Origin: Macrostomum lignano
Lineage: Eukaryota
Assembly: GCA_002269645.1 (NCBI GenBank)
Contig: NIVC01000862.1
Span: 310,001-374,000 of the forward strand
Direction: 5' to 3'
DNA length: 64,000 nt
Numbering within the stretch: the first letter of the stretch is position 1; every line of letters starts with the position of its first letter. The position numbers and the translations under genes were made by a program. The notes beneath the pieces are model-generated. The model searched no databases, was not told the DNA's origin, and saw nothing but the letters and a program-made list of their open reading frames with translations. Positions 7,530 through 32,650 of this stretch are shown here, piece by piece.

Positions 7530-8960
7530 ACCAATAGAATTTACAGTGCAGTCTGCACAACTCGCATTTCTTCGTCCTCATCAGCTGGCACATGGAAATG
7601 AAGACATTTCCGCAACTGAGCTGACGAATTCAGCCGAATCTTGCTTCGATGTTGTCGGACTGGATCTTCCCCATCAGGACGTAGCTAAATCCACAGCGAT
7701 CCAGCAGGTACTGAACCAGTGCGGCCATGGCTCGGCGGGTTTGACGGACAGTCCCGAATGTGTACGCTGTCCTATATTGCATCTGTCACAAAAAGTTCAG
7801 GTTTTAATAATAAATAAAAGTAAAGTGAAAAATCTATTTCAAATAATAAAAGAGGCAATAACCTTTGAGTTCTCCCACGCATCCAAGGAAGATCGGACAG
7901 GATCGCGGGTGAGATCTATCTTGTGCTTTCCGATTGTGGTTGTTCGGACATTCAGCACATTCCACAACTTGTGACAAACATCCAGAACGAACGTTGTCTG
8001 TCGAAAGCCGTAGTGCTTGAGTGCGTTAATGGTGGACTCGTCGAAGAGAGCTACGGCAAGCTGGACATAGACTTTCTCTAGGCTTGTTGGGTGCAGAACG
8101 ACGTTGGTAAGCTTGTGTGCCATTTTCACTGGCTTGTCCTCTTCCAAATGATGATCCTCTTTGGCGATGATCGGCGGAAACTTCGGGCACACGAACTCCC
8201 TCTTGAACAGAAAATTGTTGTAGAGATTATTCATATTGTGCGTGGGATCGAAGATCAAAAACAACTTTTGTCTGTTGAATTGATTCGTCACGCTAAAGTC
8301 GAGTCTACTGGAGCACAAGAAGTGCGTATAAAAACGCCTGTTCGCCGCTGCATTGTCAACCCATATGGCCACGACGTTGAATCCAATGTTAAGCAACATC
8401 GGCGTGGCTCTCAGGTAGCACTGATGCAGTGTCTCAGCCTTCAGGTTGTTCATTTGGAAAATTCCGACCAAGTCGCGGTACTTTGTCATTGCCGATGAAG
8501 CACAGAGCAGTCTGGGCAACATTTCCCTCTTCTGTGAGACCATGCAATTCTCAACCGCTGTTCTCGACCCGCTTGCTGAGATAAATCTCATCCATCAGCA
8601 GAATTACGTTGGTCTCATAGGCCTGGAGTGTATCGTAGCGCAACTTTAGCTATTCGCAGTTGCCCAGTCCTGTAGTCGAGGTCATCCTACGCGTCACACG
8701 CCTCAGCGTTTTGATTGAAGGTAGAACTAAGGAATTTGTCCCAGAACACACTGACAAGCAGCTGAACTCACGGAGAACATAATATAGGAGAATGCCAGCA
8801 GTTCTGGTGAATATCGCCGAGCATGCTTGTCCAAATCCAGCAATTTCAGCTGCTCAATCAGAAAAGTGAGGCAAGCTGAGACTGCATCAGTCACGTGGTC
8901 TTGCTGTTGGAGCACTAGTAAACTGGACCGGAAAACAGAGCGGCTTCCCAAAAATCAAAA
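7530..8960 (-). pseudogene. P-element/THAP9-like transposase pseudogene with one intron (about 7784-7862)
   Basis: RRYSPELLAFSYIMF, VILLMDEIYL, VVAIWVDNAAANRRF, IFDPTHNMNNLYNN, KVYVQLAVALFDESTINAL, and after a GT..AG intron YVLMGKIQSDNIEARFG*IRQ (the catalytic Glu motif followed by a stop). Confidence 0.85.
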
Positions 8961-16447: not shown

Positions 16448-16995
16448 TAGATTGGCTGTCTCTTGGTGGGCGCCTGTCTCTTGGTTGGCGCCTGTCTCTT
16501 GGTTGGCGCCTGTCTCTTTATGCGCCTCTCTCGGTTGGCCCCCATGTCTCTTGGTGGGCGCCCCTGTCTCTTGGTATGCGCCCCTGACTCTTGGTTGGCG
16601 CCCCTGTCTCTTGGTATGCGCCCCTGACTCTTGGTTGGCGCCCCTGTCTCTTGGTGGGCGCCCCTGTCTCTTGGTATGCGCCCCTGACTCTTGTTTGGCG
16701 CCCCTGTCTCTTGGTTGGCGCCCCTGTCTCTTGGTATGCGCCCCTGACTCTTGGTTGGCGCCCCTGTCTCTTGGTATGCGCCCCTGACTCTTGGTTGGCG
16801 CCCCTGTCTCTTGGTGGGCGCCCCTGTCTCTTGGTATGCGCCCCTGACTCTTGTTTGGCGCCCCTGTCTCTTGGTTGGCGCCCCTGTCTCTTGGTGGGCG
16901 CCCCTGTCTCTTGGTATGCACCCCTGTCTCATGGTATTCACTCCTGTCTCTAAGTGAGCGCCCCTGTCTCTTGGTTGGCACCCCTACCCCTGTCT
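16448..16995. repeat. 20-bp minisatellite (cccctgtctcttggttggcg)
   Basis: About 25 tandem copies. The same family occurs in the opposite orientation at 31025-31315. Confidence 0.92.
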
Positions 16996-17269
16996 CTTAG
17001 GCCCGATGGATGCCACGTCCAAGAGGGTTGAGCCCTTAACGTTGAGCGTCCATCTTGTTGCCTCTTTCGACTTTTGTTCAGTTTTTGGTGGAGTGAAATT
17101 TCGGTGTGGTCGAGGGGAGACGGGGGCGGACCCCTTCCCCCACCCCCCATTTACATTCGCTACTGAGTATCAGTAGTAGGAAAGTGGTACCCTCTACCGC
17201 CATCGCACGGGATTGGCCGGGGCACCCGGCCAATGAGGGGAGAGGGCGCCCCGAAGACGCCCACCCCGA

Positions 17270-17650
17270 CGCCAAACCCACCCCGACCCCCAAACCCACC
17301 CCGACCCCAAACCCACCACCCTCCACGCACCCAATCCCGACCCCAAACCCACGCACCCACCCCGACCCCAAACCAGGCCCCCTCCTGTCCTACACCCCTC
17401 CTGTCCTGCACCCCGTGCATCCCATACCAAGACCCCCTCCTGTCCTGCACCCCGTGCATCCCATACCAAGACCCCCTCCTGTCCTGCACCCCATGCATCC
17501 CATACCAAGACCCCCTCCTGTCCTACACCCCTCCTGTCCTGCACCCCGTGCATCCCATACCAAGACCCCCTCCTGTCCTGCACCCCATGCATCCCATACC
17601 AAGGCCCCCTCCTATCCTACGCCTTGCCCCATCCCATGTAGCAAGGTCCT
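17270..17650. repeat. C-rich subterminal tandem repeats (cccgaccccaaaccca and a 39-bp unit accccctcctgtcctgcaccccgtgcatcccataccaag); mirrored at 29645-30030
   Basis: Directly visible. The complementary strand is G-run rich and could form G-quadruplexes. Confidence 0.9.
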
Positions 17651-17904
17651 TCTATCCTGTACCCTAACCAAAACCAATTCCCCCTCCTAATTCCTAAACC
17701 CAAGTCTTATTACCTGTCTCACTTACCGCCTTTAAAGCTAGCCAAGGCAAAACCCTCATTCCATGCTTTGGTTGTACTGTATCTTGCTGTGGCGGGTACA
17801 GCGTGAGGTCGTTAGACCTAGAACGCTACTTCTTGGCGGCCAGAGGGCCGCAAGAAGGTCCCGCCACCTCCTGTTACGTTGATGGCTGAGACTTTGTTAA
17901 GGCC

Positions 17905-18170
17905 CGAGTTCCTGCGAAAGGGCTGCTGTGTGGGGGTTGGATTTGGGGTTCGGATTAGTTATTGCTATGGAACAGGAGCTGGTTTCTAAATGGCTGAGTG
18001 GTCCCCGGAAGGGCTCCTGATTTGCCGAGAGTTCCTGCGAGAGGGCTGTTGTGTGGGGTTGGATTCGGGGTTCGGATTGGTTATTGCTATGGAGCGGGGA
18101 TCTGGTGTTACTTACCAACTCTCGTCGTATATAATCTCGCACACAGCCGGAAGGAAAGCTCACAGTGAAC
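17905..18170 (+). promoter_or_regulatory. Putative promoter of the PC4-like gene
   Basis: Two roughly 70-bp direct repeats (about 17905-17980 and 18028-18102), the second containing an inverted CCAAT (ggattggtt). TATATAA at 18128-18134, Inr-like tcacagt at 18160-18166, and AAAATG start context at 18171-18176. Confidence 0.5.
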
Positions 18171-18173
18171 AAA

Positions 18174-18884
18174 ATGAACTTCAAGACATTATCGAACAGA
18201 TTTCGAATCGGCGTCAGGTCGCACTCGAAGTGCATCAGCATCAGAAAGTGGTACAAATTTGATGAAGAGTATCGACCAGGTCTGCCTGGCATGGAGCTCA
18301 CCGTCCACCAGTTTTGCCACTTGGGCAGCCTGAAGGAACGACTGGAAGAGTTTGCAAGAAAGTGTATCGATGCGCAATGCCTTCTGGGTGGCAACAGGCA
18401 AGTGGTTGTGCAAAATGGCGTAATCACACTCTGGCGCCTTCCAACTGTACTCGGACCGCCGGTGCACCTAAGGCACGCCTTACCGCTTCCTACAAAACTT
18501 TGGCGCGAAGTCTGGGCTCAAAAGCATTGGGTCCTAGACAAAATTGACAAGCGAGAACCTCCAGTCAAGCCACCGATCGGCGATCCATGGTGGATGGGAT
18601 ACCACCCTACGGAGCCTGAAGAGTGTGCAGCATGGGCAGCAAGGCTTACACTCGACCAACTTATACAAGTACCTGACAGGCAGCCGGCAGAGTGGGACGA
18701 CCACTGGGAGGCTTTCCAGGCAGTTCAGGCTGAATTTAGAAAGAGATTTGCATCCGAAACTCTGGAAGAGCCATCAACAGCTGAGAAGAACCAACAGCCT
18801 TCATGCCACCAGCCACCAATGAAGCGACGCGCAATGCGTGAAGCGAAACTGGTCATTTCGTCAAGTAACTTTTTTTTAATATAG
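18174..18884 (+). CDS. PC4/Sub1 (transcriptional coactivator p15)-like ssDNA-binding domain protein carried by the Maverick
   Basis: LSNRFRIGVRSHSKCISIRKWYKFDEEYRPGLPGMELTVHQFCHLGSLKERLEEFARK aligns by eye to the PC4 core ([58 protein letters not shown]), followed by a Trp/Pro-rich C-terminal region. ATG at 18174; the ORF track starts at GTG 18165. Confidence 0.75.
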   Translation: MNFKTLSNRFRIGVRSHSKCISIRKWYKFDEEYRPGLPGMELTVHQFCHLGSLKERLEEFARKCIDAQCLLGGNRQVVVQNGVITLWRLPTVLGPPVHLRHALPLPTKLWREVWAQKHWVLDKIDKREPPVKPPIGDPWWMGYHPTEPEECAAWAARLTLDQLIQVPDRQPAEWDDHWEAFQAVQAEFRKRFASETLEEPSTAEKNQQPSCHQPPMKRRAMREAKLVISSSNFFLI

Positions 18885-19300
18885 TTTTGAACCATAGTAC
18901 TGATCATGCACTGTTGTATATACTGCTTTGTCAATACTGGCTATAATATTGCCCCATGATGCTTTAATTTCTTGCGATAATACCTGTTTTGTAAATACAC
19001 GTGACGGGCCTTAATACTGCCCTTCCATTCTTCATAAACTTTTTTTGTGCTAATAGGAGCTTTTAACATGTAATTTTATGCTTTGCAATCCATGGACCTG
19101 CCAATAAAATAAACAAAAAAAACGTTTCATTTTTGTAAGCATTGTTGCACAAACATTGTTGCATTCGCGTTTATTTTTTCTTATCTTTTGTACACAAAAA
19201 ATACAGAAGTAAAGTTATAGGAAAAATATTATTATTATTATTATTATTATTACTCTGTGCATAGGCAGATCTCACTACTACTGTTATGCCGTAGAGGAGC

Positions 19301-19899
19301 TCAGTCAGAGTCCAGCAAAGTAGGTTCGGATGCTTGGTCTGCATGCAAAATGCGGGAGAGGGCATCAGCTGCAGTCTGAGCCTCAACCACGCTGCGAGCA
19401 CCAGCTATTATACAGCGATATGAATGAAACAAAATCAACTTTACAGAAGCAGTAAACTCGAGCACAAGTCCGTTAAACATTTCCGGCTCGTAGGTGGCCC
19501 GATGCGGCCATTTAGACTTGACTTCCCCCAACCGGAGTGGATGCCGACCCGCGGGAAAGGCGTCACAGAGGTAATAGTCTTGATGCGAATCTGGGGCAGA
19601 CTGGTCAATCGCAAGAAGTCTGCACACAGCTTCACAATCTTCTCTGTCTCTGCGAGAGCTTCCTCCATGCTTTTGGCTCCACAGACAGACACTTGTCCGG
19701 TCGGATACACCAGCGCGGTTACTCGATGCTGCCCGCTCTTCATCACCACAGCCAGTGTTCGAGGATGAACCAGGCGATGGCGGATTGTGTGATACTGAGG
19801 CAGATGAAGAGTCAGGAAATTCGCTAGTTGAGGCAGACCCACCCGGGTCGCCAGGTCGGCTCCTGTCACGATGTTTGTCACGCGAATTGTTGCGACCAT
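19301..19899 (-). CDS. Divergent TATA-binding protein (TBP)-like gene; 199 aa once a 1-nt deletion at about 19561 is restored from the right arm
   Basis: Both TBP repeats are recognisable: IRVTNIVTGADL, TALVYPTGQVSVCGAKSMEEA, HPLRL, ATYEPEMFNGLVLEF, VKLILFHSYRCIIAGARS. The right-arm copy reads through the site in frame. Confidence 0.9.
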
Positions 19900-20392
19900 C
19901 TTTAGACAATCGAGAGAAACGCCAGTGCCTGCTGCAGATCGCTACTTTTATAGACCCGTAGCCGCGAGGCCGCAGCCAATCAGCGTACAGCGCCACCTTG
20001 GCCAGGGCGCAGGGTAGCACGTACTTCGAGGCACTCGGAAAGGCCAGGTGTGCGAGGTCGTAGACAGGCTGTAGCAGCAGACGCGACAGGAACTGGCACT
20101 TGACATCCCCCTTGCTGAATATCGGGCCTTGCAAGTGGGAGATATCGCTCCAGAGACAAGAGTAGGGTCGGAACCCACTCCTGTCCCAGTCTAGACCGTG
20201 CCGCTTATTGGTGAGCCAGTAGCAGGTTCGTCGCTGTCCTCGATCAAAGAGCTCAAAGCTGTGCGGCGGTCGGTAGCAATAGTAATGAGCCGTCGTTTGA
20301 CCGCATGCAAACTCAACCCATGCAATTTCCTTAATCACAAAGTCCTCTGTTTTGTAGAGGTGCGGAAATCCTTCAAAATCAATGACAATCAT
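19512..20392 (-). CDS. DEDD/RNase H-fold exonuclease-like Maverick protein
   Basis: MIVIDFEGF..FVIKEIA..YRPP..WLT..HGLDW..SKGDVK..CALAKV..DW. The ATG overlaps the upstream stop (ATGA). The 3' end is uncertain because the frame runs on over the TBP N-terminal half to a stop at 19512, inferred from the right arm. Confidence 0.7.
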
Positions 20393-20985
20393 CTTGGCCA
20401 CTTGATCCACTTGCCGTATCCTTTCTGAGACTGAGTCTTCTTATAGCCTTGCAGTCGAGGTTTTTTAGGACTGGACTTTTCTTCCCGAGGCTTTTCCAGC
20501 AATTTTGTAGTGTTCAGACCAACTGCAGACAGAGGCACGTGGTTTTCTTGAAGACACGTAACAAACTCATTAATCCCATTCGGTGGCTGAAGGTACTTAG
20601 AGTACGTATCTTTAACTATGAAATTCAGCAGGTCCACGATATTTGAGTTGTACAACGGTTTACCATTGACAGAAACTTCATACGTATCATCTATGCTAAT
20701 CGACTTGCACTTTACGGTTATGAAGCTAATCAATGCCTGCAGACGATGATGCCATTTCTGATTCACCGTCAGATATAAAACCTCCTTCCACTGCGGTTCT
20801 TTGTGAATTACTGGAGGCTGTTCTTGGGTCGCACTTGCCTGCAGCTGCTGCACGCAACGCTCGTCCCTAATCTTGCGCAACTGTTTTTCCGCCTCTAGCT
20901 CGGGTTCACAGACTGTCTCCATGCCCCTCTGATTCACAAGTGCCTCATACTGCAACCGGGGTACCAGTATCATTTCCTTGTACAT
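20389..20985 (-). CDS. Conserved Maverick hypothetical protein
   Basis: KEMILVP...EVSVNGKPLYNSNIVDLL..PPNGINEFVTCLQENHVPLSAVG, a pattern I recognise from Maverick core blocks. Intact 198-aa ORF. Confidence 0.7.
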   Translation of the reverse strand: MYKEMILVPRLQYEALVNQRGMETVCEPELEAEKQLRKIRDERCVQQLQASATQEQPPVIHKEPQWKEVLYLTVNQKWHHRLQALISFITVKCKSISIDDTYEVSVNGKPLYNSNIVDLLNFIVKDTYSKYLQPPNGINEFVTCLQENHVPLSAVGLNTTKLLEKPREEKSSPKKPRLQGYKKTQSQKGYGKWIKWPR

Positions 20986-21277
20986 GTCTTTTTATATAGG
21001 TGAGAATCAGAGGAAGACAACGAAGGATATGCGGGTGTGAGAGATTACGCCGAGCCTCTTTCACACTTTTGCTTTGTGCAACAAGCCGGAGAGTATTTCG
21101 ATATCGCCTGAGTCTCCGCTTCAAGCTATCTTCACAGCCAACTTTTCCTGCTAGTAAGTTGATAATACACTCGACCAAAAAGCAAATGGTGCTTTTATTT
21201 GCATAGGTAAGTATGCAGCGACGCAAGGATATAGTGCCCTCACAAAAGACAGTTATTAGTGCAATGTGTTTATCCAT
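20945..21277 (-). CDS. Small basic conserved Maverick protein
   Basis: RRCIL..A....ICFLVECIINLLAGKV..LKRRLRRYRNTLR; located directly downstream of the ATPase. Confidence 0.7.
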   Translation of the reverse strand: MDKHIALITVFCEGTISLRRCILTYANKSTICFLVECIINLLAGKVGCEDSLKRRLRRYRNTLRLVAQSKSVKEARRNLSHPHILRCLPLILTYIKRHVQGNDTGTPVAV

Positions 21278-21307
21278 GTTTAACTCAGTGCAGATACTGA
21301 GCCATTC

Positions 21308-21966
21308 TTATAGATAAACTCGCTGCGGGGCCTCATCGGGGAGAAAATTGGCTCTCAGGCGCAGTTCATGGGGTGAAGCGGGGTGAAAATCAAGCAGCAG
21401 ATAGCGCTGATCTCCATCTCGCACCAATCGATCCATCAGTTCTACTAGCAGAGTGCGCCGTTTGGGAAAGCATTGCTGACTTAAAGCTTGGACCGCAGAG
21501 GTGTCTCTGGGGTTGTTGAACAACACATGTAGGTGCAATTTATGCTAATTGTGCGCCACTCTCTGCCTTTGAAAAATAGATTTTGCGTGATGAGAATGAC
21601 AAAGCAGGGCTTGTGGTGGGCCTCACGGGTGAACAGATGTCGTAGCTCTCGACTTGCAGCTGCTTCATCCAGTAAATCGTCAATCACAATCAGGTCATGG
21701 GGCTGCAGATCCAAATTCGATAATCCTTCACATACTTGCACTCCTAGCCGCCGCAGAGTCGCGTGGAGTTCCGGCTGCGGGCATCCGTGATACCAAATCA
21801 TCCGCTTGGGAGGTTGGTCGAACAGAAGCAGTCGTTGGGACAGCAACCGCAAACAGAATGTTGATTTTCCCGCTCGAGAAGGGCCCGAAACCATCATGCA
21901 GCCTCCCATCCGCAGTCTGGAATCAAACACCTTGCAACTGATTTTTGAGTCTGAGTATGATTGCAT
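21308..21966 (-). CDS. A32/FtsK-like genome-packaging ATPase (1-nt frameshift near 21526)
   Basis: Walker A GPSRAGKST, Walker B LIVIDD, VILITQNLF, and after the shift VLFNNPRD and YLLLDFHP. Confidence 0.93.
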
Positions 21967-22396
21967 CGTTTTGAGCCACAGCTGCCGGGTGCAAAACCTT
22001 GATGAACAAGGCATTATATGACATTCTCTTATGTAGTCGATGGATCAAGTAAAAAATGCAATACCAGCCGCATAGAGTTGACGAACTGGGCTGAACAGGG
22101 ACCGTATTCCATTGCAGCACCATCCGCGTCGGTTTAGTTTTCTTTAACCAGCTCTTCATATTTTTACTCAAGCCTCCCAAAGAGTTGAAAATTTCACAAT
22201 GCACTTTACTTGTTACTACTCCAGCAATCCAGTGACCGCACTCATCATTCCATGGCTCATACAAAATGAAACAGCAGGGTCGGCAGGTTGAATCGAAAAA
22301 TGGTGTCACTGTTCCAACTGTAAAAATTCCGCAATAGGCATCCCACACAGCTGTGGGGCAGCGAGAAATGAACGCTTCCAACTCTTCGGAATTCAT
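21923..22396 (-). CDS. Adenain-like cysteine protease
   Basis: GHWIA, EIFNSLG, PVQPSSSTLCGWYCIFYL. Confidence 0.9.
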   Translation of the reverse strand: MNSEELEAFISRCPTAVWDAYCGIFTVGTVTPFFDSTCRPCCFILYEPWNDECGHWIAGVVTSKVHCEIFNSLGGLSKNMKSWLKKTKPTRMVLQWNTVPVQPSSSTLCGWYCIFYLIHRLHKRMSYNALFIKVLHPAAVAQNDAIILRLKNQLQGV

Positions 22397-23663
22397 GCTC
22401 TGCGATAATCCAGCAGCACATCCCTCTCTTTAGTGATTTCCATGCATGAATCATACACGCACAAGCAGATGAGTGTGACTGGCTGTGCGAGAGCGTTGGA
22501 AAAGCGAATATCCAGTCGTAGTTGACCCTGCCTATGACCAAACCAGCTGCCTACTTCATCGCCACTTGGACTAAGGTCAAACGCAAGCAGATAGGCACTA
22601 TCTCGATATTCATCAAAGCTCATGCAATAGTTTCCACCGAGACTGCGGGCAAACTGCAAAAATTCGGATGAGTGCTGCTGCTGTGGTTCTATGGGCTGCC
22701 CAGTAATTGGCTGTCCATTGACAAACAGGCTTAAACTATTCAATCCAAATGCTTGGAACCAAAACGGGTTGTGGTGCAGAGATCCATTGAAAGCTGTCTG
22801 GCTGACCATGCCAAGGAGCACAAATTTTGGCAGCTGACCATGCGTGATTGAATCGAGACTCTTGTTTCTTGTCCCAACAGAAAATGTGAATGTCTGAAGC
22901 TCTCTTCTATCAAAGTGGTAGAGAGCATTACGCTGTGAGAGCCCCTGTTCATGTGCGAAGCCACTGTTGGGTTTACTCGGAGACGCCTCAAAAGCAGAAT
23001 AGCATTGTCGACTTCAATACGATATTGAACTCCATTATTGGGTACCATCAACGAAAAAGCGCTGCAATGCCGGGTCAATTTGACCTGCAGGCTGATTTGG
23101 TTTAGCAGATACTGCCGGATTGAGAAAATGTCTGAAAACAACGGGCCGGCATATTGCACAACAGCAGAAGCCTCATGCAATCTCGCACGATTTGTGAATC
23201 CATGATTTTGCTCCCCAATGGTGTCACTCTCTCCAGCGGTGTCTGGATAATAACCTGCGGCCGCCAGTTCTTGAAGCTGGTTGGCATTGCTGCTGGTCAG
23301 CACTTGAAGCATTGCTCGATATGGGTAGAGCTGGTCCCCACCACTCACAACCCGCTGGTTGAGTTTTACAGTGACATCACGAAACAGGCTGGCAAGCGGG
23401 AGATTCGATAGTCCGACATGGGCATCATCTTCATTAGTCAGCTCTGCATTGTTTATCACACGAGTTATCCGGCAAGTGACTTGCAGCACTGTGGCGTGCA
23501 GATCGGTGTAGTCCTCAGAGGAGGCATGGCAGTCGAATTCAATCGGTGCATCAGGAGTCGTGAGACTGCCGATGGGATGAAAGTCCATGAAGTGAGACCT
23601 ATCCACTCCAATTTCATGCGTCATTGGCTCAAACAGGTTGAGCCGTGGATTTGTCCGATACAT
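22393..23663 (-). CDS. Double jelly-roll major capsid protein (1-nt frameshift near 22943)
   Basis: LNLFEP..PIEF..DYTDL..LASLFRDVTVKLN..YPYRA..YYPDTAG..GQLPK..AFNGSLHHNPF..AFDLSP..GQLRLDIRFSNAL..DVLLDY. Restoring one G in the GGGG run gives RGLSQRNALYHFDRRE in frame. Confidence 0.92.
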
Positions 23664-23933
23664 TATGAGAGTGAATCGAGCACTCGGTTGACTGTTTTTA
23701 ACGGTATCTTGCGCTTTTTTTTTGGGCACTGGCTTGCTCTTCTTTGGTTTGATTTTTGGCGTCTTCTTATGTTTTCTTTTTTTCTGCGATGGAGGTGGTA
23801 TGCGGGAAAGGAGAACTGCATTTTCATGAGTCTCAGGGGGCAGTCGAGATAGCAGCGATGTGGGATATCCGTGCCCATGAGGAAGTTTGAAGCAACTGCC
23901 TCGATAAAACTCGGTCACTTGTCGAATGTCCAT
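23664..23933 (-). CDS. Lys-rich putative core (DNA-condensing) protein, in frame with the major capsid protein
   Basis: YRGSCFKLPHGHG motif and a QKKRKHKKTPKIKPKKSKPVPKKK tail. No stop before the MCP start. Confidence 0.45.
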
Positions 23934-24697
23934 GACTCACGCAGCTCAAAAGTCAAGACTGTGGGCCCAAAGAGTAATCGAATGGATTCGATGCAGTTGA
24001 TCGGTCGTAGCCGTATTTGCATGTGTGTTAAGCGGTGGTTTGCTGCTATTTGGAAGAACAGCTTATTCTTATAGATGAGTTCCGACCGGTGACCCTGCAA
24101 AAGACCACCAATATTCAAAGTCTGCAGTGCTGGAGTAAACTGATTTCCAATACAGCGCGGGCTAATCTGATCGCACTCAACAAGCAGCAAATCTGTATTC
24201 CAGGCCGGGTTCATGCCAGGTCGTTCAAAGCAACCTGCCTGCTCGCTATAGGTTGTCTGCTCAGCACCAAAAATTTTCCCCAGCTGGCTGTTTTCTGGAA
24301 AGATAAATCTCCCACAGATCCCAGCCATTTGATAGTATACATAATGGCTAACTGAATCAAGGGTAAATTTAATTAGATGCACATTTATAGGTGTTTCGCC
24401 AATTCCAGACTCATCAAAATCTTTTACAATCAGTAAAGCATTTACTGCATCAATCAGCTCATTCAAGTCATTGTAGCGCCCAGCTGGAATTTCAGCACAT
24501 TGCATTGAACCCTCAAGCTGATAAAATAGCGACAACGGATGAGGGATGGTGTAGATGCAGTTGATAAAACTGATTCCAAGCAGACCCAACTCATAATCCA
24601 AAGCAAAATCCAGCAGCACAGGATGCAGCAGCTCAGCAGTAAAGTTGGCCGGGTCATCATCGGGGCCGGACATTACCTGAAATCTTTGCCTTTTCAT
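23915..24697 (-). CDS. Minor capsid (penton-like) protein
   Basis: NFTAELLHPVLL..YELGL..EIPAGRY..LNELIDAVN..LLVECDQI..GPTVLTFELR; lies between the integrase and MCP. Confidence 0.8.
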   Translation of the reverse strand: MKRQRFQVMSGPDDDPANFTAELLHPVLLDFALDYELGLLGISFINCIYTIPHPLSLFYQLEGSMQCAEIPAGRYNDLNELIDAVNALLIVKDFDESGIGETPINVHLIKFTLDSVSHYVYYQMAGICGRFIFPENSQLGKIFGAEQTTYSEQAGCFERPGMNPAWNTDLLLVECDQISPRCIGNQFTPALQTLNIGGLLQGHRSELIYKNKLFFQIAANHRLTHMQIRLRPINCIESIRLLFGPTVLTFELRESWTFDK

Positions 24698-25670
24698 ATT
24701 TTTCTTAAGTCTTTTTCGTCAATCCAACTGGGTTTTTCTGAATCGCGCCACTGAACCAAATACCGAATCTTTCCACTCTTCAGCTTCTTAATGTTGAGAA
24801 CCTTGTCGATGATCCACAGCTTCTTGTTTCCAGTCACTTGCTGCATTTCCGGCTCGTAAAACTTGCCTTCCAACTCTTCTCCTCGGGCATCGATCAGAGT
24901 GTACATGTATGGATAATGCTTGGGGTGGAGGGACTTGACTTCAAATACTTCCTCACTCCATCCCCTTGTGTATCCCTTGGTGAATGGGTTGGTCGGATTG
25001 CGAAGAGAGATTCGCACCATCATTCCTGCCTTGAACTTTGGTCTGGAGACCTTTTCACGAGTCTCAGGAAGCTTCCCATCGTAGAGCCGGTGCCAAATTT
25101 CCATCTCGTTTGACTTGTCGACATCAACTGGTCGGCTTTGAATACTCCGATGAATACTATGGTTGAAGGCCTTCACTAGGGCTGAAGCACATCGGTCCAG
25201 GTTAATGTTGACTTGTGACGGAAGTACCGCCACATTCGGGATTTCAGTGTGCGGTTCCATCTCTCAATGACTGCGCATTTCTGGTCACTACTTGATGTGA
25301 ATGCATGAATTTTGTGGTTTACGCAGAGGGCTCGGAACTGGGTGTTGCAAAACTCTTTTCCGCGGTCGGTCCGAACTGCTCGTGGGCATCCAGGGTGAGC
25401 TCGATTTAGGATCGCTTCGAATCCGGCTGCAACCTCCTCGGCTGTCTTGCGGCGCACCGGCTGAGCCCAGGCAAACTTGCTGAGCACATCGATGCAGCAT
25501 AAAATGTATCGCATGCCGCCATTGTACTTGGCGAACGGCAGCATTTCAACCAGGTCCAGTTCCCACTGGTCATCCATGCCCCGCACCACAATCGGTGCTC
25601 GACGAAAGTTTTTGCGTTTATCTCTATGCAGTGTGTAGACATCTTGGTCTTGTAGCCACGTTTTTACCTT
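24694..25670 (-). CDS. Retroviral-type (rve) integrase with C-terminal chromodomain-like region; N-terminus truncated; 1-nt frameshift near 25180
   Basis: KVKTWLQDQDVYTLH, DQWELDL, RYILCCIDVLSKFAWA, RTDRGKEF, AVIERWNRTLK, YNHSIHRSI and IDKVL..RYLVQW..SW. An in-frame TAG lies just upstream of KVKTW. Confidence 0.92.
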
Positions 25671-25724
25671 TAGTGTGAAAACTGGAAATTGCTAGCAACT
25701 AAAAACCTAAGCTGGAATTTTCTA

Positions 25725-26766
25725 GAAAATCATTGGTTTAGGAGTATATCGTATATACATACCTGCCCTACACTAAACTTGGGCCCGTGCTGTTTGTGCA
25801 ACTCTCGATTTAATGCCTGATAGCCGCCATAGCTGCCCGGCCTACTGCAGTCAAAATAAATACCTGGCAGAATTTTGGAAATTGCCTTTTTCTTTTTCAT
25901 TTTACCAAATTTCTAGTACCTATCATTTTCTTATGCCAAACACCTGGCTTGAAAAAAAACTACCCACCCCGACCCATTTCTGCGGATTTAGCGTTTCTAG
26001 CCTCTGTTGTGCACGAAAAATCATGCATTTTTGCATAAAATACATACATTTCAATGGGAATTTTTACCCGAATGTGTGCACGAAAAACCTCGACACTTTG
26101 CATACTTTTTAACACTGTGCACGAAAACTTGCATACTTGTGCACAAAATAAATGTTGTTCAATAGGGATTTTTACTCGAACCTGTGCATGAAAATTGACG
26201 CATGTTGTCAAAAAAGTCACGTCATATTGCGCACTTTTAATCACTGTGCACGAAAACTTACATACTCGTGTACAAAATACAAACATTTCAATGAGAATTT
26301 TAACCCAGAGATGTGCACAAAAATGACTCATTATGGTAAAAATATTAATGTGAAAGAACAATTTTCTCTCCTGCAGTGTATCAAATATCATTAAGTAAAG
26401 GATGGATTTATTATTATTCAAAATATAGTATATTCGCATTAAATTCACATGCACATAGTTAAAAATTAAAGATATGTGAAAAGAATGTTATTGTGAGAAA
26501 AAGAGCTTGCTAGTGTCCAGATCGCACTGGCCGACACTGGCTTGTCATCTTGAGAACGTGCACCAGAACTAAATCCCGGTTGAAAATCTTCTGGTCGCGG
26601 AATGCTGACTTGGCCACAGGCTTTGAATTGACCAGTCGGTAGCTCACTTGCTTGCGAACATTCTCTAGGGTCTACAGGGAGTTGTTTAGCGGCCCGTTGT
26701 CTTTCTTGAACTCATTCTTGGCCTTTTGCACGACGCTCCATGCGGTAGATAATAAACAGCGGTCGA
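25725..26766. other. Unique AT-rich spacer at the centre of the palindrome; probably foreign transposon-derived DNA
   Basis: About three degenerate repeats of roughly 135 bp rich in tgtgcacgaaaa (25995-26330), plus a stop-containing coding-like fragment on the minus strand (26520-26760). No pPolB motifs. Confidence 0.55.
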
Positions 26767-26820
26767 TAGAAAATTCCAGCTTAGGTTTTTAGTTGCTAGC
26801 AATTTCCAGTTTTCACACTA

Positions 26821-27448
26821 AAGGTAAAAACGTGGCTACAAGACCAAGATGTCTACACACTGCATAGAGATAAACGCAAAAACTTTCGTCGAGCACCGAT
26901 TGTGGTGCGGGGCATGGATGACCAGTGGGAACTGGACCTGGTTGAAATGCTGCCGTTCGCCAAGTACAATGGCGGCATGCGATACATTTTATGCTGCATC
27001 GATGTGCTCAGCAAGTTTGCCTGGGCTCAGCCGGTGCGCCGCAAGACAGCCGAGGAGGTTGCAGCCGGATTCGAAGCGATCCTAAATCGAGCTCACCCTG
27101 GATGCCCACGAGCAGTTCGGACCGACCGCGGAAAAGAGTTTTGCAACACCCAGTTCCGAGCCCTCTGCGTAAACCACAAAATTCATGCATTCACATCAAG
27201 TAGTGACCAGAAATGCGCAGTCATTGAGAGATGGAACCGCACACTGAAATCCCGAATGTGGCGGTACTTCCGTCACAAGTCAACATTAACCTGGACCGAT
27301 GTGCTTCAGCCCCTAGTGAAGGCCTACAACCATAGTATTCATCGGAGTATTCAAAGCCGACCAGTTGATGTCGACAAGTCAAACGAGATGGAAATTTGGC
27401 ACCGGCTTTACGATGGGAAGCTTCCTGAGACTCGTGAAAAGGTCTCCA
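26821..27448 (+). pseudogene. Second, inverted, 3'-truncated integrase copy
   Basis: 26767-27448 is the reverse complement of 25044-25724. It reads through the left-copy frameshift (DVLQPLVKAYNH) and breaks after EKVS. Confidence 0.92.
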
Positions 27449-27452
27449 CCGG

Positions 27453-27995
27453 GTGGGTCTGCCACAACTAGCGAATTTCCTGACTCTTCATCTGCCTCAG
27501 TATCACACAATCCGCCATCGCCTGGTTCATCCTCGAACACTGGCTGTGGTGATGAAGAGCGGGCAGCATCGAGTAACCGCGCTGGTGTATCCGACCGGGC
27601 AAGTGTCTGTCTGTGGAGCCAAAAGCATGGAGGAAGCTCTCGCAGAGACAGAGAAGATTGTGAAGCTGTGTACAGACTTCTTGCGATTGACCAGTCTGCC
27701 CCAGATTCGCATCAAGACTATTACCTCTGTGACGACCTTTCCCGCGGGTCGGCATCCACTCCGGTTGGGGGAAGTCAAGTCTAAATGGCCGCATCGGGCC
27801 ACCTACGAGCCGGAAATGTTTAACGGACTTGTGCTCGAGTTTACTGCTTCTGTAAAGTTGATTTTGTTTCATTCATATCGCTGTATAATAGCTGGTGCTC
27901 GCAGCGTGGTTGAGGCTCAGACTGCAGCTGATGCCCTCTCCCGCATTTTGCATGCAGACCAAGCATCCGAACCTACTTTGCTGGACTCTGACTGA
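27453..27995 (+). CDS. TBP-like gene, second copy (frame intact, first 18 or so codons missing)
   Basis: Continuous 180-aa frame from GLPQLANF to EPTLLDSD containing both TBP repeats except the first strand. Confidence 0.85.
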   Translation: MGLPQLANFLTLHLPQYHTIRHRLVHPRTLAVVMKSGQHRVTALVYPTGQVSVCGAKSMEEALAETEKIVKLCTDFLRLTSLPQIRIKTITSVTTFPAGRHPLRLGEVKSKWPHRATYEPEMFNGLVLEFTASVKLILFHSYRCIIAGARSVVEAQTAADALSRILHADQASEPTLLDSD

Positions 27996-28427
27996 GCTCC
28001 TCTACGGCATAACAGTAGTAGTGAGATCTGCCTATGCACAGAGTAATAATAATAATAATAATAATAATATTTTTCCTATAACTTTACTTCTGTATTTTTT
28101 GTGTACAAAAGATAAGAAAAAATAAACGCGAATGCAACAATGTTTGTGCAACAATGCTTACAAAAATGAAACGTTTTTTTTGTTTATTTTATTGGCAGGT
28201 CCATGGATTGCAAAGCATAAAATTACATGTTAAAAGCTCCTATTAGCACAAAAAAAGTTTATGAAGAATGGAAGGGCAGTATTAAGGCCCGTCACGTGTA
28301 TTTACAAAACAGGTATTATCGCAAGAAATTAAAGCATCATGGGGCAATATTATAGCCAGTATTGACAAAGCAGTATATACAACAGTGCATGATCAGTACT
28401 ATGGTTCAAAACTATATTAAAAAAAAG

Positions 28428-29123
28428 TTACTTGACGAAATGACCAGTTGTCGCTTCACGCATTGCGCGTCGCTTCATTGGTGGCTGGTGGCATGAAGGC
28501 TGTTGGTTCTTCTCAGCTGTTGATGGCTCTTCCAGAGTTTCGGATGCAAATCTCTTTCTAAATTCAGCCTGAACTGCCTGGAAAGCCTCCCAGTGGTCGT
28601 CCCACTCTGCCGGCTGCCTGTCAGGTACTTGTATAAGTTGGTCGAGTGTAAGCCTTGCTGCCCATGCTGCACACTCTTCAGGCTCCGTAGGGTGGTATCC
28701 CATCCACCATGGATCGCCGATCGGTGGCTTGACTGGAGGTTCTCGCTTGTCAATTTTGTCTAGGACCCAATGCTTTTGAGCCCAGACTTCGCGCCAAAGT
28801 TTTGTAGGAAGCGGTAAGGCGTGCCTTAGGTGCACCGGCGGTCCGAGTACAGTTGGAAGGCGCCAGAGTGTGATTACGCCATTTTGCACAACCACTTGCC
28901 TGTTGCCACCCAGAAGGCATTGCGCATCGATACACTTTCTTGCAAACTCTTCCAGTCGTTCCTTCAGGCTGCCCAAGTGGCAAAACTGGTGGACGGTGAG
29001 CTCCATGCCAGGCAGACCTGGTCGATACTCTTCATCAAATTTGTACCACTTTCTGATGCTGATGCACTTCGAGTGCGACCTGACGCCGATTCGAAATCTG
29101 TTCGATAATGTCTTGAAGTTCAT
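28428..29123 (-). CDS. PC4-like gene, second copy
   Basis: Identical to the left copy except for the extreme C-terminus (ATTGHFVK* versus AKLVISSSNFFLI*), caused by a 1-nt indel. Confidence 0.75.
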   Translation of the reverse strand: MNFKTLSNRFRIGVRSHSKCISIRKWYKFDEEYRPGLPGMELTVHQFCHLGSLKERLEEFARKCIDAQCLLGGNRQVVVQNGVITLWRLPTVLGPPVHLRHALPLPTKLWREVWAQKHWVLDKIDKREPPVKPPIGDPWWMGYHPTEPEECAAWAARLTLDQLIQVPDRQPAEWDDHWEAFQAVQAEFRKRFASETLEEPSTAEKNQQPSCHQPPMKRRAMREATTGHFVK

Positions 29124-30360
29124 TTTGTTCACTGTGAGCTTTCCTTCCGGCTGTGTGCGAGATTATATACGACGAGAGTTGGTAAGTAACACCAGATCCC
29201 GCTCCATAGCAATAACCAATCCGAACCCCGAATCCAACCCCACACAACAGCCCTCTCGCAGGAACTCTCGGCAAATCAGGAGCCCTTCCGGGGACCACTC
29301 AGCCATTTAGAAACCAGCTCCTGTTCCATAGCAATAACTAATCCGAACCCCAAATCCAACCCCCACACAGCAGCCCTTTCGCAGGAACTCGGGCCTTAAC
29401 AAAGTCTCAGCCATCAACGTAACAGGAGGTGGCGGGACCTTCTTGCAGCCCTCTGGCCGCCAAGAAGTAGCGTTCTAGGTCTAACGACCTCACGCTGTAC
29501 CCGCCACAGCAAGATACAGTACAACCAAAGCATGGAATGAGGGTTTTGCCTTGGCTAGCTTTAAAGGCGGTAAGTGAGACAGGTAATAAGACTTGGGTTT
29601 AGGAATTAGGAGGGGGAATTGGTTTTGGTTAGGGTACAGGATAGAAAGACCTTGCTACATGGAATGGGGCAAGGCGTAGGATAGGAGGGGGCCTTGGTAT
29701 GGGATGCATGGGGTGCAGGACAGGAGGGGGTCTTGGTATGGGATGCACGGGGTGCAGGACAGGAGGGGTGTAGGACAGGAGGGGGTCTTGGTATGGGATG
29801 CATGGGGTGCAGGACAGGAGGGGGTCTTGGTATGGGATGCACGGGGTGCAGGACAGGAGGGGGTCTTGGTATGGGATGCACGGGGTGCAGGACAGGAGGG
29901 GTGTAGGACAGGAGGGGGCCTGGTTTGGGGTCGGGGGTGGGTGCGTGGGTTTGGGGTCGGGATTGGGTGCGTGGAGGGTGGTGGGTTTGGGGTCGGGGTG
30001 GGTTTGGGGGTCGGGGTGGGTTTGGCGTCGGGGTGGGCGTCTTCGGGGCGCCCTCTCCCCTCATTGGCCGGGTGCCCCGGCCAATCCCGTGCGATGGCGG
30101 TAGAGGGTACCACTTTCCTACTACTAGTATCTTACCATTAGCGTTTGATTCATTTGATGTCTGTCTGCAGATTCTCTTCTATTAACTTTCGTAAGAAATC
30201 TCAGAACTTTTTTTTTTTTCCATTGTTTTTCTCCCTGTATAAGTCTAGTTTATTTCCGAATATCAAACTTTGTACTTTTCCTGGTCTTCAAATGGTTTAC
30301 TTACCTTATTATTTGAACTCTGCTCCATTTTGTGCTTTTACTTATTGTAGATAACATCTC

Positions 30361-32650
30361 ATGATGGACCTGACATCATCATCGTGGCTGCAGAACAAAA
30401 GTGAGTAATTGATTATGGTTATTTATGCCTTTCTACTCAGCATACCATTCAGCCCCTAATTCGATTTAATTGGTGAATTGGTCTAAAATTTGCCCTGACA
30501 CACAGTAAGAAGCGATTCCCCCCCATAAAACTGGTTTATACGATCTCCGATAGTCCACCTCTAGAATCTCCCATAATCCACATCTAGAAACTCTCATAAT
30601 CCGTCTCTAGAATCTCCCATAATCCGCCTCTAGAATCTCTCATAATCCACCTCTAGAATCTCCCATAATCCACCTGTAGAATCTCCTATAATCCGCCTCT
30701 AGAATCTCCATAATCCACCTCTAGAATCTCCCATAATCCACCTCTAGAATCTCCCATAATCCACCTCTAGAATCTCCCATAATGCACCCGTAGAATCTCC
30801 CATAACCAAGCCACATTCGTTGACATAGCCATTTCCATGCTAATCGCGGTTGTAATTGTTCAATCTGTCAATCAAGGCGATACAGATCTGCCGTTTCCCG
30901 TCATGTCTTCTGATCCGAAGGCTCAACAAGAACTGCTTGATTGCAACTACGCAAAACGATTTAGCCTTGACGAGGCCAGATCTGGTCGAAGTAAGTTGCT
31001 AAACACTTTGATACACCAAGGGATAGGGGCACCCACCAAAGAGACAGTGGCGCCCACCAAGAGACAGGAGCGCCAACCAAGAGACAGTGGCGCCCACCAA
31101 GAGGCAGGGGCGCCAACCAAGAGACAGGGGCGCCAACAAAGAGACAGTAGCGCCAACAAAGAGACAGGAGCGCCAACAAAGAGACAGGAGCGCCAACAAA
31201 GGGACAGGAGCGCCAACAAAGAGACAGGAGCGCCAACAAAGAGACAGGAGCGCCAACAAAGAGACAGGAGCGCCAACAAAGAGACAGGGGGGCCAACAAA
31301 GAGACAGGGGGGCGTATAGATGTGTATCTTAAAAAATTTTGATAAACTGATAACTTTTCAAAGACATTGTTTACAATTTTTTAGCCGACAGAAAAATCCG
31401 TGTTTACTGCGACGGCTGTTTCGATTTGTTTCACTTCGGTCACATGAGAGTGCTGCTGCAAGCCAAGTACCTGCTGCCCAATGCCTATCTTATTGCCGGA
31501 GGTCAGTACAAAATCTGTGCTCAAACCTTAGAAAATTTTAACATTTTTTCAACATCTCTATAAAAGTGTCCTAACTACTCTACTACAAGTAGAAATATAA
31601 AAGTATCTGTAAATATTCGTTTTACGGCTCCGTTCTATGTAAATTTGTTTTCAGTAGCAACCGACAGCCAGGTGCGGCAGTGCAAGGGTGTCAGCCCAAT
31701 TATGACAAGGCAAGAACGGCTGGCCTCCGTGGCCATGCTGTCCTTCGTCGATGAGCTGCTTGACGACCCGCCCATGCTGCCAACTCCAGAGTTTTGCAAC
31801 GGGTATAAGGTGAGACAGGCTGACAGATTACTAGCTAAGAGGTGTATTGAAATGACCTCTAATTCAGTGACAATATCTAACCCTATTTCCTGTTCATAAT
31901 CGACACTAGGCACCCTGATGATAATGCAATTCTTATCCACTAAATAGGAAAATAGCCTAGCTAATTCCCCTGAAGAGAATGCCCTAATCCCCTAAAGATA
32001 ATCCCCTAATCCCTGAAAAGAATCCCCTAATCATCTGAAGAGAATCCCCCTAATTCCCGAGGAGAATCCCCTTAATCCCCCAAAAATTTCTCTTATACCC
32101 GAAGATAATCCCCTAATCCCCGAAAAGAATTCCCCTAATAATCTGAAAATAATCCCCTCTAATCCCCCTAATCCCCGAAGAGAATTCCCCTCATCTCCTG
32201 AAGAGAATTCCCCTAATACCCTGAAGATAATTTCTCTAACCACTTTAAGAGAATTAGCCTCCTAATCCTGCGAAGAGAATCCCCCTAATCCCCTGAGGTG
32301 AATTTCTCTAATCCCTGAAAAGAATTCTCCTAATCCGACTAATAGAATTCCCCTAGTCCTCTGAAGAGAATTCCCCTAATTCTCCAGAGCGAGAATATCA
32401 CGCAGCCGCCTTCAAGGGTCTAGATCATAGATAAATGCGCTCGTACATTTTTCAGATCGACTTCGTGGCTCACGACGCCATCCCGTACATCTCATGCCTG
32501 CCACCTGAAGAGACCTACGAGTGGGCCAAACGGGCCGGAATGTTCCTGGAAACGAAACGAACCGACAGCATTTCGACAACGAACCTGATTGATCGAATAG
32601 TTCGTCGGCGCGACGAAATCGCTAATTGTCGTCCTCAAAAGCACCAGTAG
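30361..32650 (+). CDS. PCYT1: Choline-phosphate cytidylyltransferase (CCT)-like; exons 30361-30400, 30886-30990, 31385-31501, 31655-31809, 32456-32650
   Basis: Spliced product contains [16 protein letters not shown] (HxGH), IDFVAHD and [17 protein letters not shown]. All four introns are GT-AG with compatible phases (1,1,1,0). Confidence 0.9.
30555..30805. repeat. 23-bp minisatellite (ctagaatctcccataatccacct) in PCYT1 intron 1
   Basis: About 11 tandem copies. Confidence 0.9.
31025..31315. repeat. 20-bp minisatellite (gcgccaacaaagagacagga) in PCYT1 intron 2
   Basis: Reverse-complement relative of the 16448-16995 array. Confidence 0.9.
31965..32390. repeat. Degenerate gaagagaattcccctaat repeats in PCYT1 intron 4
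   Basis: Directly visible. Confidence 0.8.

What the first reader, a model, noticed from the sequence alone, without database searches (positions are those of the whole stretch)
18174..18884. PC4/Sub1-like ssDNA-binding coactivator domain in the Maverick arm
Seen: the first 60 or so residues match the PC4 core pattern (ISIRKWY versus IDIREYW; RPGLPGMEL versus [15 protein letters not shown] versus EQWSQL; LEEFARK versus IDDAVRK). An aromatic pair sits at the PC4 Trp89 region, and an unknown Trp/Pro-rich domain of about 170 aa follows. Known: PC4 binds melted or single-stranded DNA and coactivates Pol II through the basal machinery, and Mavericks have no universally recognised SSB. Inference: it may serve as the SSB for strand-displacement replication (the adenovirus DBP role), as a transcription cofactor, or both.
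Basis: partly seen in the sequence, partly recalled or inferred. Interest (0 to 1): 0.78.

Follow-up and report, generated by a model that had tools for sequence, protein, structure and literature searches.

The report
Maverick's double PC4 DNA-binding protein
A virus-like Maverick transposon in an animal genome carries a real, conserved gene for a protein with two PC4-type single-stranded-DNA-binding folds fused in one chain, a gene type already labelled on some related viruses, which probably helps the element copy its DNA.

Summary
The ORF is real and residues 1-64 are PC4/Sub1 (Pfam, profile, AlphaFold plus Foldseek). The 'unknown 170-aa domain' is partly wrong: residues 65-127 are a second, diverged PC4 repeat, giving a single-chain pseudo-dimer (Pur-alpha-like topology); a small Trp-rich helical domain of no known fold and a basic tail follow. 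The canonical DNA contacts are split between the repeats. The gene is first inside a 12,954-bp Maverick (AGTAGT ends, 6-bp target duplication) that lacks pPolB and carries a second copy in a duplicated arm. Relatives occur in two Maverick families of this genome, under purifying selection and usually with a TBP-like gene. In full-length copies of this family the same terminal-repeat TATA region precedes this gene at one end and pPolB at the other; the second family lacks that arrangement. The gene type is not new: 'MOSUB' is labelled beside an ITR on a published adintovirus map and is the top viral fold match. I found no paper discussing it. Best reading: an early ssDNA/melted-DNA-binding replication helper (0.5); transcription cofactor (0.25). 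Binding is untested. Earlier scan notes report TBP in Mavericks on other DNA, none a Maverick PC4.

The parts
17172..30125 (.). Maverick/Polinton element, 12,954 bp, AGTAGT...ACTACT ends; non-autonomous rearranged copy with no pPolB
17166..17171 (.). 6-bp target-site duplication AGTATC, left
30126..30131 (.). 6-bp target-site duplication AGTATC, right
17172..18166 (+). Stretch equal to the ~1,040-bp terminal inverted repeat of full-length copies; ends 8 nt before the PC4 ATG
18128..18134 (+). TATA box (TATATAA) inside the terminal repeat, 46 nt before the ATG; the same box precedes pPolB at the other end of full-length copy C114
18174..18884 (+). Tandem-PC4 (MOSUB-like) gene, 236 aa (the finding)
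18174..18365 (+). PC4 repeat 1 (aa 1-64): keeps the R86 (R24) and W89 (Y27) equivalents; R100/K101 replaced by L37/P38
18366..18554 (+). PC4 repeat 2 (aa 65-127): keeps the R70 (R75) and R100 (R100) equivalents; short hairpin, no F77 or W89 aromatic
18579..18761 (+). Acidic Trp/Pro-rich three-helix domain (aa ~136-196), conserved in the closest relatives, no fold match
18822..18830 (+). KRR basic cluster, NLS-like (inference); a basic cluster lies near the C-terminus in most relatives
19103..19108 (+). AATAAA polyadenylation signal after the gene; an opposite-strand one at 19170 for the convergent TBP-like gene
19253..19899 (-). TBP-like gene, convergent with the PC4 gene; frame broken in this arm
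19877..20392 (-). Small gene with a DEDD-nuclease-like start (name recalled from the motif; no Pfam match); possibly the 'MAEL' of adintovirus maps
20389..25577 (-). Core Maverick genes: two unassigned ORFs, packaging ATPase, cysteine protease, putative major and minor capsid genes (no clear Pfam match; named by position), rve integrase with chromodomain; several frames broken
26767..27448 (+). Inverted duplicate of 25044-25724 (integrase 5' part), 99.6% identical
27449..30125 (-). Inverted duplicate of the left arm 17172-19846, 99.6% identical; replaces the pPolB end
28428..29123 (-). Second copy of the tandem-PC4 gene, 231 aa; no mismatch over the first 672 nt, different last residues

Best explanation
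The gene encodes an element-borne PC4-family protein in which two beta4-alpha repeats fold in one chain into the saddle that cellular PC4 builds as a homodimer. It is transcribed early from a TATA promoter at the element's end and enters the nucleus through its basic tail. It binds single-stranded or melted DNA, and its most likely main job is in protein-primed replication by pPolB: holding the terminal origin open and covering the displaced strand, the role DBP plays for adenovirus. The acidic Trp-rich domain is a likely protein-docking site. Shown computationally: ORF, fold, two repeats, conservation, position, shared upstream region with pPolB in this family. Inferred: transcription timing, nuclear import, DNA binding, the replication step. 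The window's copy sits in a pPolB-less derivative and could act only with an autonomous copy in trans.
For: Fold: model pLDDT 83.7 with elements E4-H-H / E3-E-H-H over residues 1-125. The top 10 Foldseek PDB rows are all PC4 or MoSub1 (best E 7.6e-3, probability 1.0, rmsd 1.6 A, 64 columns). VIA-align best is Pur-alpha repeats I-II over 1-127 (Z 11.0, rmsd 3.9, 118 aligned), with PC4 at Z 6.7, rmsd 1.2 over 2-64. Repeat 2 against cellular PC4 gives probability 86.5, score 28.9, against a best of 16.8 in 60 column shuffles. DNA-face residues are near-invariant in the 30-row alignment: R24 in 28, Y/F27 in 29, K/R75 in 29, K/R88 in 29, R100 in 27; both repeats are net basic. dN/dS is 0.11-0.15 against 4 distant family-A copies and 0.07-0.25 for repeat 2 in the 7 of 10 family-B pairs where dS could be computed. 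The upstream region is shared with pPolB in 8 of 10 loci; the ORF there is the pPolB N-terminus, in a 1,239-aa open frame in C254. PC4-fold proteins bind ssDNA and unwind duplex without ATP, and phage T5 has a PC4 homologue tied to replication (PMC7549692, parts 1-3 of 6 read).
Against: No binding was measured. Repeat 1 has lost the R70, R100 and K101 equivalents (PG[VILF]PG in place of PGRKG in 26 of 30 rows), and this family also lacks the F77 aromatic (H17; F or Y in 17 of 30 rows). F77 or W89 to alanine abolishes ssDNA binding in human PC4 (PMC4350104, passages). Repeat 2 has neither aromatic. The shared promoter is not general: 0 of 7 family-B elements share upstream DNA between the PC4 gene and pPolB within the ~1.8-2 kb fetched, and 2 of 10 family-A pPolB ends share only the outer tip. 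Cellular PC4 is best known as a transcription cofactor, and these elements carry TBP. No Foldseek PDB match reached E 0.001.
Confidence: 0.5

Rival explanations
1. It is mainly a transcription cofactor: it works with the element's TBP-like protein and host Pol II at viral promoters, stabilising the open complex, with the acidic Trp-rich domain as an activation or docking surface. This can coexist with the replication role.
For: A TBP-like gene is the convergent neighbour here and is present in both families (Pfam TBP E 6e-19 to 8e-25). 66 of 114 family-B PC4 places have a TBP-like match within 17 kb, 51 of them at 7.3-7.7 kb on the same strand; both lists were capped, so this is a lower bound. 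Residues 128-200 are acidic (15 D/E against 6 K/R) with 5 Trp. PC4/Sub1 are Pol II cofactors.
Against: The two genes are adjacent only in family A; in family B they are about 7.5 kb apart and TBP sits next to pPolB. The Ser/Lys-rich N-terminal regulatory region of cellular PC4 (visible in the host's own PC4) is absent. The Bos-associated insect adintovirus map shows MOSUB but no TBP label. Co-occurrence inside one element family is expected for any two core genes.
Confidence: 0.25
2. The pseudo-dimer has changed ligand or role: it binds RNA or structured DNA, as other single-chain PC4-fold proteins do (Pur-alpha, MRP1/2), or serves as an adaptor or decoy against host PC4/RPA or DNA-damage sensing.
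For: Canonical contacts are lost or moved. The best whole-domain fold matches are single-chain proteins, including the RNA binders Pur-alpha (Z 11.0) and MRP1/2 (Z 7.6). MRP1/2 binds RNA through one of its two sheets (PMC7549692).
Against: By sequence both repeats derive from PC4 and not from PUR (26 of 30 rows match PF02229, none a PUR family). The Pur-alpha match reflects shared topology. R86 and W89 equivalents are kept in repeat 1.
Confidence: 0.17
3. The gene is a passenger: a captured host PC4 that persists only because it lies next to the terminus, with no function for the element.
For: The window's copy is in a pPolB-less derivative; of 27 family-A copies read, 8 give a 228-236-aa frame and the rest are shorter or shifted. 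Near copies show dN/dS of 0.3-0.7.
Against: There is strong purifying selection between subfamilies. The two-repeat design is kept in two families with different gene order and in proteins from other public assemblies. Each repeat forms its own branch apart from the host PC4 (repeat 2 support 100/100; repeat 1 97/79, rough). Decay of integrated copies is expected.
Confidence: 0.05

Closest known systems
Adintovirus 'MOSUB' proteins (UniProt A0A5H3CIS2, Branchiostoma lancelet adintovirus; A0A5H3CT48, Bos-associated insect adintovirus; map label in Starrett et al. 2021, PMC8502044, Suppl. Fig. S2)
   Same: PC4/MoSub1-like gene of about 200 aa in a Polinton-type virus. On the Bos-associated insect 1 map it is the last gene before an ITR, beside 'MAEL', like the order here. 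A0A5H3CIS2 is the best BFVD match (E 5e-4, 173 columns); A0A5H3CT48 ranks 46 (E 0.085).
   Different: Only 16% and 9% identity; rmsd 9.4 A and TM 0.32 for the best. I could not fetch these sequences, so orthology and a two-repeat design in them are not shown. The paper's main text never mentions MOSUB or PC4; the tandem fold, split contacts, TBP neighbour and shared terminal promoter are not in the parts I read.
Cellular PC4/Sub1 (PF02229; PDB 1PCF, 6YCS, 4BHM)
   Same: Repeat 1 superposes at rmsd 1.2-1.6 A and keeps the IR.[WFY]Y and PG..G..L...Q motifs; repeat 2 is a diverged homologue.
   Different: One chain of two unequal repeats and not a homodimer; no Ser/Lys-rich N-terminal region; PGRKG replaced by PG[VILF]PG; extra C-terminal helical domain.
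Type I (single-chain) PC4-like domains: Pur-alpha repeats I-II, Whirly, MRP1/2 (classification in PMC7549692)
   Same: beta4-alpha-linker-beta4-alpha topology in one chain; Pur-alpha 3K44 is the best whole-domain match (Z 11.0).
   Different: 12% identity or less and no PUR or Whirly Pfam match; this protein reached the type I design by duplicating PC4 itself (inference).
Cellular multi-PC4 proteins of green algae and other eukaryotes (e.g. DBA81025.1, BDA42711.1)
   Same: Several PC4 repeats in one chain.
   Different: Their repeats keep the canonical PG[KR]KG motif and group with cellular PC4 in the tree.
Adenovirus DBP and phage T5 PC4 homologue (PDB 4BG7)
   Same: Proposed working analogues: a virus-encoded ssDNA binder for replication. 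4BG7 matches at Z 5.5.
   Different: DBP has an unrelated fold (own knowledge); the T5 protein is a homodimer tied to recombination-dependent replication.

Membership tests
PC4/Sub1 family (PF02229) | Profile match to PF02229 | tested here: met
   26.1 bits (cut-off 25) for aa 1-67; 22.9 for the whole protein; 26 of 30 alignment rows match at E 0.01 or better
PC4/Sub1 family (PF02229) | beta4-alpha fold | tested here: met
   AlphaFold model; Foldseek and VIA-align to 6YCS/1PCF/4BHM
PC4/Sub1 family (PF02229) | Symmetric homodimer of one-repeat chains (type II) | tested here: not met
   Two repeats in one chain; whole-domain match is to type I proteins. Predicted, not solved.
PC4/Sub1 family (PF02229) | Full set of ssDNA contacts R70, F77, R86, W89, R100, K101 in one repeat | tested here: not met
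   Repeat 1 keeps R86 and W89(Y); repeat 2 keeps R70 and R100; F77 is His here
PC4/Sub1 family (PF02229) | Ser/Lys-rich N-terminal regulatory region | tested here: not met
   The protein starts at the first beta-strand; the host PC4 has such a region
PC4/Sub1 family (PF02229) | Binds ssDNA or melted DNA; coactivates Pol II | not testable with these tools
   Needs binding and transcription assays
Type I PC4-like domain (PMC7549692) | beta4-alpha-linker-beta4-alpha in one chain | tested here: met
   Model elements over 1-125; Z 11.0 to Pur-alpha over 1-127; the first hairpin of repeat 2 is short
Adintovirus MOSUB genes | PC4-like gene next to an ITR in a Polinton-type genome | tested here: met
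   First gene from the terminus in both families; same position on the published map
Adintovirus MOSUB genes | Orthology by sequence or tree | tested here: inconclusive
   Only a structure-based match (E 5e-4, 16% identity); the named proteins did not appear and could not be fetched
Maverick/Polinton element | AG...CT termini, terminal inverted repeats, 6-bp target duplication | tested here: met
   matching 6-bp flanks in 3 of 3 other copies with both ends seen
Maverick/Polinton element | rve integrase, packaging ATPase, cysteine protease | tested here: met
   Pfam rve E 1e-12; AAA and Peptidase_C48/C5 matches weak, below cut-off
Maverick/Polinton element | Protein-primed DNA polymerase B | tested here: not met
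   Absent from the window's copy; present in sister copies of the same family such as C114 and C254, so this copy is a non-autonomous derivative
Maverick/Polinton element | Jelly-roll capsid proteins | tested here: inconclusive
   Two conserved ORFs at the expected place in both families, no clear Pfam match; not folded

The most novel reading that the evidence does not exclude
A widespread lineage of animal Mavericks (polintoviruses) has turned cellular PC4 into a dedicated asymmetric single-chain ssDNA-binding protein that fills the missing adenovirus-DBP slot. It is switched on together with pPolB from twin promoters in the terminal repeats, and then doubles as a cofactor for the element's own TBP, linking replication to late transcription.
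Probability: 0.25. Interest if true: 0.7.

Novelty: new variant of a known kind. Interest (0 to 1): 0.45.

Why it matters
How Mavericks handle the displaced strand during protein-primed replication is untested, and the core papers I searched name no ssDNA-binding factor in their main text. This gives a small, soluble, well-modelled candidate with a clear first assay. It attaches a structure and a mechanism to a label ('MOSUB') that sits on maps and database records without discussion. It also shows PC4 being duplicated into a single-chain pseudo-dimer with its DNA contacts divided between the halves. Interest is moderate, because the gene type was already labelled in adintoviruses, the fold is well known and function rests on inference.

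Tried and rejected
Complex prediction of the PC4-like protein (1-200) with the TBP-like protein (1-195): no verdict, score 0.00, alignments not used; not counted either way. Expression: no RNA holder listed; the runs are only guessed to be RNA and their contigs cover genes and non-coding parts alike, so inconclusive. Genomic context outside this genome: IMG/VR gave 1 weak locus, L081, a 59-aa match inside an unrelated ORF of a phage-like contig, rejected as chance; a second IMG/VR scan and both metagenome scans found none; two alignments had no usable pattern. So the Maverick context of the relatives P0002-P0014 and the more distant tandem proteins is not shown. C-terminal domain: no Pfam match, best Z 4.1 in PDB and best E 0.74 in BFVD; it is not a third PC4 repeat (probability 1.6). 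Direct repeat 1 versus repeat 2 comparison was weak (probability 5.7, within the shuffle range); repeat 2 is tied to PC4 through the cellular profile, the model and the Atlas leads (0.85-0.88, leads only). Idea that the PC4 and pPolB genes always share a promoter: rejected for family B (0 of 7). Assembly artefact as the source of the duplicated arm: unlikely, since the arms differ slightly, the target duplication is intact and other copies show other rearrangements, but not tested with reads. Literature: searches for Polinton+PC4, Maverick/Polinton+TBP, adintovirus/PLV+PC4/Sub1, Maverick+PC4+ssDNA-binding, Preplasmiviricota+PC4, MOSUB and adintovirus/Maverick+SSB listed no paper that treats a Polinton PC4; the one co-occurrence (PMC11662393) uses PC4 as a cluster label. 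Subscription papers are mostly outside this library. Starrett's Suppl. Figs S1 and S3 (slides) could not be read, the archive was cut so Table S1 was not seen, and bioRxiv supplements were closed; these may describe MOSUB further.

Full report
Observation. Window 18174-18884(+) is a 236-aa ORF with a TATATAA box 46 nt upstream and an AATAAA signal at 19103. Pfam PC4 matches residues 6-50 at E 5.9e-5, 22.9 bits, just below the cut-off of 25; the first 67 residues alone pass at 26.1 bits. The best PDB sequence match is fungal MoSub1 at E 0.015. These scores are modest, but relatives in the same genome reach 35.7 bits, 26 of 30 aligned relatives match PF02229, and a profile of repeat 1 matches 82 cellular PC4 domains at probability 99.2. 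The PC4 call is sound.

The element. The ORF lies 1,002 bp inside an element running 17172-30125, with AGTAGT ends and the 6-bp target duplication AGTATC. It encodes an rve integrase with a chromodomain, a packaging ATPase, a cysteine protease, two ORFs at the capsid positions (no clear Pfam match), a small gene with a DEDD-like start (name recalled) and a TBP-like gene convergent with the PC4 gene. It has no pPolB. Its right end is an inverted 99.6% copy of the left arm (27449-30125) behind an inverted piece of the integrase (26767-27448), so it holds a second PC4 gene of 231 aa at 28428-29123. The last 11 residues of the 236-aa form are private to that arm: 1 of 27 copies read ends so, and 7 of 27 end like the 231-aa form.

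Anatomy of the protein. AlphaFold2 on a 30-row alignment gave mean pLDDT 83.7 and two successive strand-sheet-plus-helix units, 1-62 and 67-125. The top 10 Foldseek PDB rows are PC4 or MoSub1 (best E 7.6e-3, probability 1.0, rmsd 1.6 A); none reaches E 0.001. VIA-align against 48,161 chains ranks Pur-alpha repeats I-II first over residues 1-127 (Z 11.0, rmsd 3.9, 118 aligned), followed by other single-chain members of the fold and PC4 itself (Z 6.7, rmsd 1.2 over 2-64). Repeat 2 has no Pfam match alone but matches the cellular PC4 profile at probability 86.5, score 28.9, against at most 16.8 for 60 column shuffles. The Atlas's top three clusters for repeat 2 of a relative carry PF02229 (leads only). 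A direct repeat 1 versus repeat 2 comparison was not significant. In the terms of PMC7549692 (parts 1-3 of 6 read) this is a type I, single-chain PC4-like domain. Residues 136-196 form three helices, conserved in 4 close relatives, with no fold match; a KRR cluster follows.

DNA-contact residues. Human PC4 uses R70, R86, R100, K101, F77 and W89 (PMC4350104, passages). I mapped these through the MoSub1 alignment and the host PC4. Repeat 1 keeps R86 (R24, 28 of 30 rows) and W89 (Y27; Y or F in 29 of 30) but has F/Y/I/V at R70 and PG[VILF]PG in place of PGRKG (26 of 30). F77 is F or Y in 17 of 30 rows and His here. Repeat 2 keeps R70 (K/R in 29 of 30) and R100 (27 of 30), has a near-invariant K/R88, and lacks both aromatics. 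The register in the third strand of repeat 2 is uncertain. The contacts are therefore divided between unequal halves, which fits one composite site or an altered ligand; it weakens any claim of PC4-identical binding.

Conservation. A search of the window's genome (G000, 764 Mb) gave 150 matches of 267 candidates, 150 scored, in two families: A (the window's) and B (27-36% identical over residues ~6-126). In both, the gene is first from the terminus, though gene order differs. dN/dS is 0.11-0.15 against the 4 distant family-A copies among 14 compared, 0.3-0.7 against near copies, and in family B 0.07-0.25 for repeat 2 (7 of 10 pairs computable), 0.10-0.19 for repeat 1 (2 of 10; the rest saturated) and 0.24-0.62 for the C-terminal part. 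Relatives with the same design come from other public assemblies (259 hits at E 0.001 or better, of the 150 listed most are cellular one- to four-repeat PC4 proteins), on short contigs whose context I could not read. In a rough tree of 87 domains (68 columns; bootstrap not settled; only every fourth multi-PC4 repeat included) repeat 1 and repeat 2 each form one branch apart from the host and other cellular PC4s. This is consistent with one old capture and duplication, but the tree is unrooted.

Hints at function. In full-length family-A copy C114 the ~1,040-bp terminal repeat ends 8 nt before the PC4 ATG, and the same TATA box and leader stand about 58 nt before the first ORF at the other end. 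That ORF is the pPolB N-terminus (1,239-aa open frame in C254). The same held for 8 of 10 pPolB-end loci tested (6 over about 1 kb, 2 with a 180-bp innermost match); 2 of a second type share only the outer tip. Family B differs: a TATA box lies 76-92 nt before the PC4 ATG in 6 of 7 (the seventh was anchored at a wrong codon), but 0 of 7 share upstream DNA with pPolB, and another ORF lies upstream of pPolB in the two examined. A TBP-like gene accompanies 66 of 114 family-B PC4 places within 17 kb, a lower bound because both lists were capped; cellular genes and second-half TBP rows were dropped before counting.

What is known. The best match among predicted viral structures is 'MOSUB' of Branchiostoma lancelet adintovirus (E 5e-4); a Drosophila adintovirus protein ranks 8 and a second MOSUB ranks 46. 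Suppl. Fig. S2 of Starrett et al. 2021 (PMC8502044; passages, part 2 of 5 and the text of that figure read) labels 'MAEL MOSUB ITR' on one map and 'SSDBP' near two others. The main text and the preprint do not mention MOSUB or PC4, and mention TBP only in legends for non-animal MELD viruses. An Atlas cluster of viral PC4 proteins has one member recorded as Preplasmiviricota. Term searches inside PMC11161782, PMC10748475, PMC8097293, PMC3671162 and the coral polintovirus preprint (passages only) found no PC4 or Sub1 where those terms were asked, and no element-encoded SSB. So a PC4-like gene at a Polinton end is on record as a label, and I found no analysis of it.

Verdict. Real gene, PC4 fold confirmed, architecture corrected to a tandem pseudo-dimer. 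It works like PC4 in fold and probably in ssDNA binding, but is not a canonical PC4/Sub1 member (single chain, contacts split, no regulatory N-terminus). It is probably of the same kind as adintovirus MOSUB, with orthology unproven. Most likely an early replication helper (0.5), next a transcription cofactor with the element's TBP (0.25). New variant of a known kind; interest 0.45.

Noticed in passing
window 19253-19899 (-) and 27450-28043 (+); L039:8595-9245, L034:5519-6085: Both Maverick families in this genome encode a two-repeat TBP-like protein (Pfam E down to 8e-25); well over 100 places in G000 against 6 cellular TBP-family loci. No TFIIB match appeared among the element ORFs scanned, but this was not searched systematically.
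   Followed up: partly
window 17172-30125: Double-left-arm derivative: the pPolB end is replaced by a fold-back of the integrase start and a jump to an inverted copy of the left 2.7 kb, yet it has a clean target duplication. This suggests template switching during strand-displacement replication followed by integration in trans.
   Followed up: partly
L039/L040/L048 (C494), L041/L042 (C255), L045/L046 (C1277), L085/L086 (C1184): Several 10.5-12 kb family-A copies lack most of pPolB, and their remaining pPolB N-terminus is only about 50% identical to that of full-length C114/C254 copies. They look like a mobile non-autonomous subfamily with ends of two origins; TIR similarity is only about 200 bp.
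   Followed up: partly
L108:1765-2400 (-), L118:1970-2401 (-): Family-B elements carry a further low-complexity acidic/Gln-rich ORF upstream of pPolB, ending in a short shared-looking motif (LQ..LP......Y......I.....).
   Followed up: no
P0036 (public protein, 104 aa): Holds only the Trp-rich C-terminal domain and basic tail, without PC4 repeats; either a separate gene or a fragment.
   Followed up: no
PMC9223095 (passages) and Atlas clusters: Bivalves are reported to have 5-18 PC4 genes, some with two PC4 domains, with no mention of transposons or Mavericks in that paper's main text. Some of this expansion may be Maverick-borne; untested.
   Followed up: no
window 16456-16985 and 31015-31316: The host DNA on both sides of the element has related 20-bp tandem arrays in inverted orientation (about 84% alike).
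   Followed up: no
window 7839-8591 (-): 250-aa ORF with a weak match to a TNP-like RNase H domain (E 0.0012), probably a separate DNA-transposon remnant.
   Followed up: no
L051-L053: The host's own PC4 occurs in 3 near-identical copies on different contigs, as do its TBP genes (3 and 3), which suggests a partly duplicated genome or unmerged haplotypes; copy counts here should be read with that in mind.
   Followed up: no
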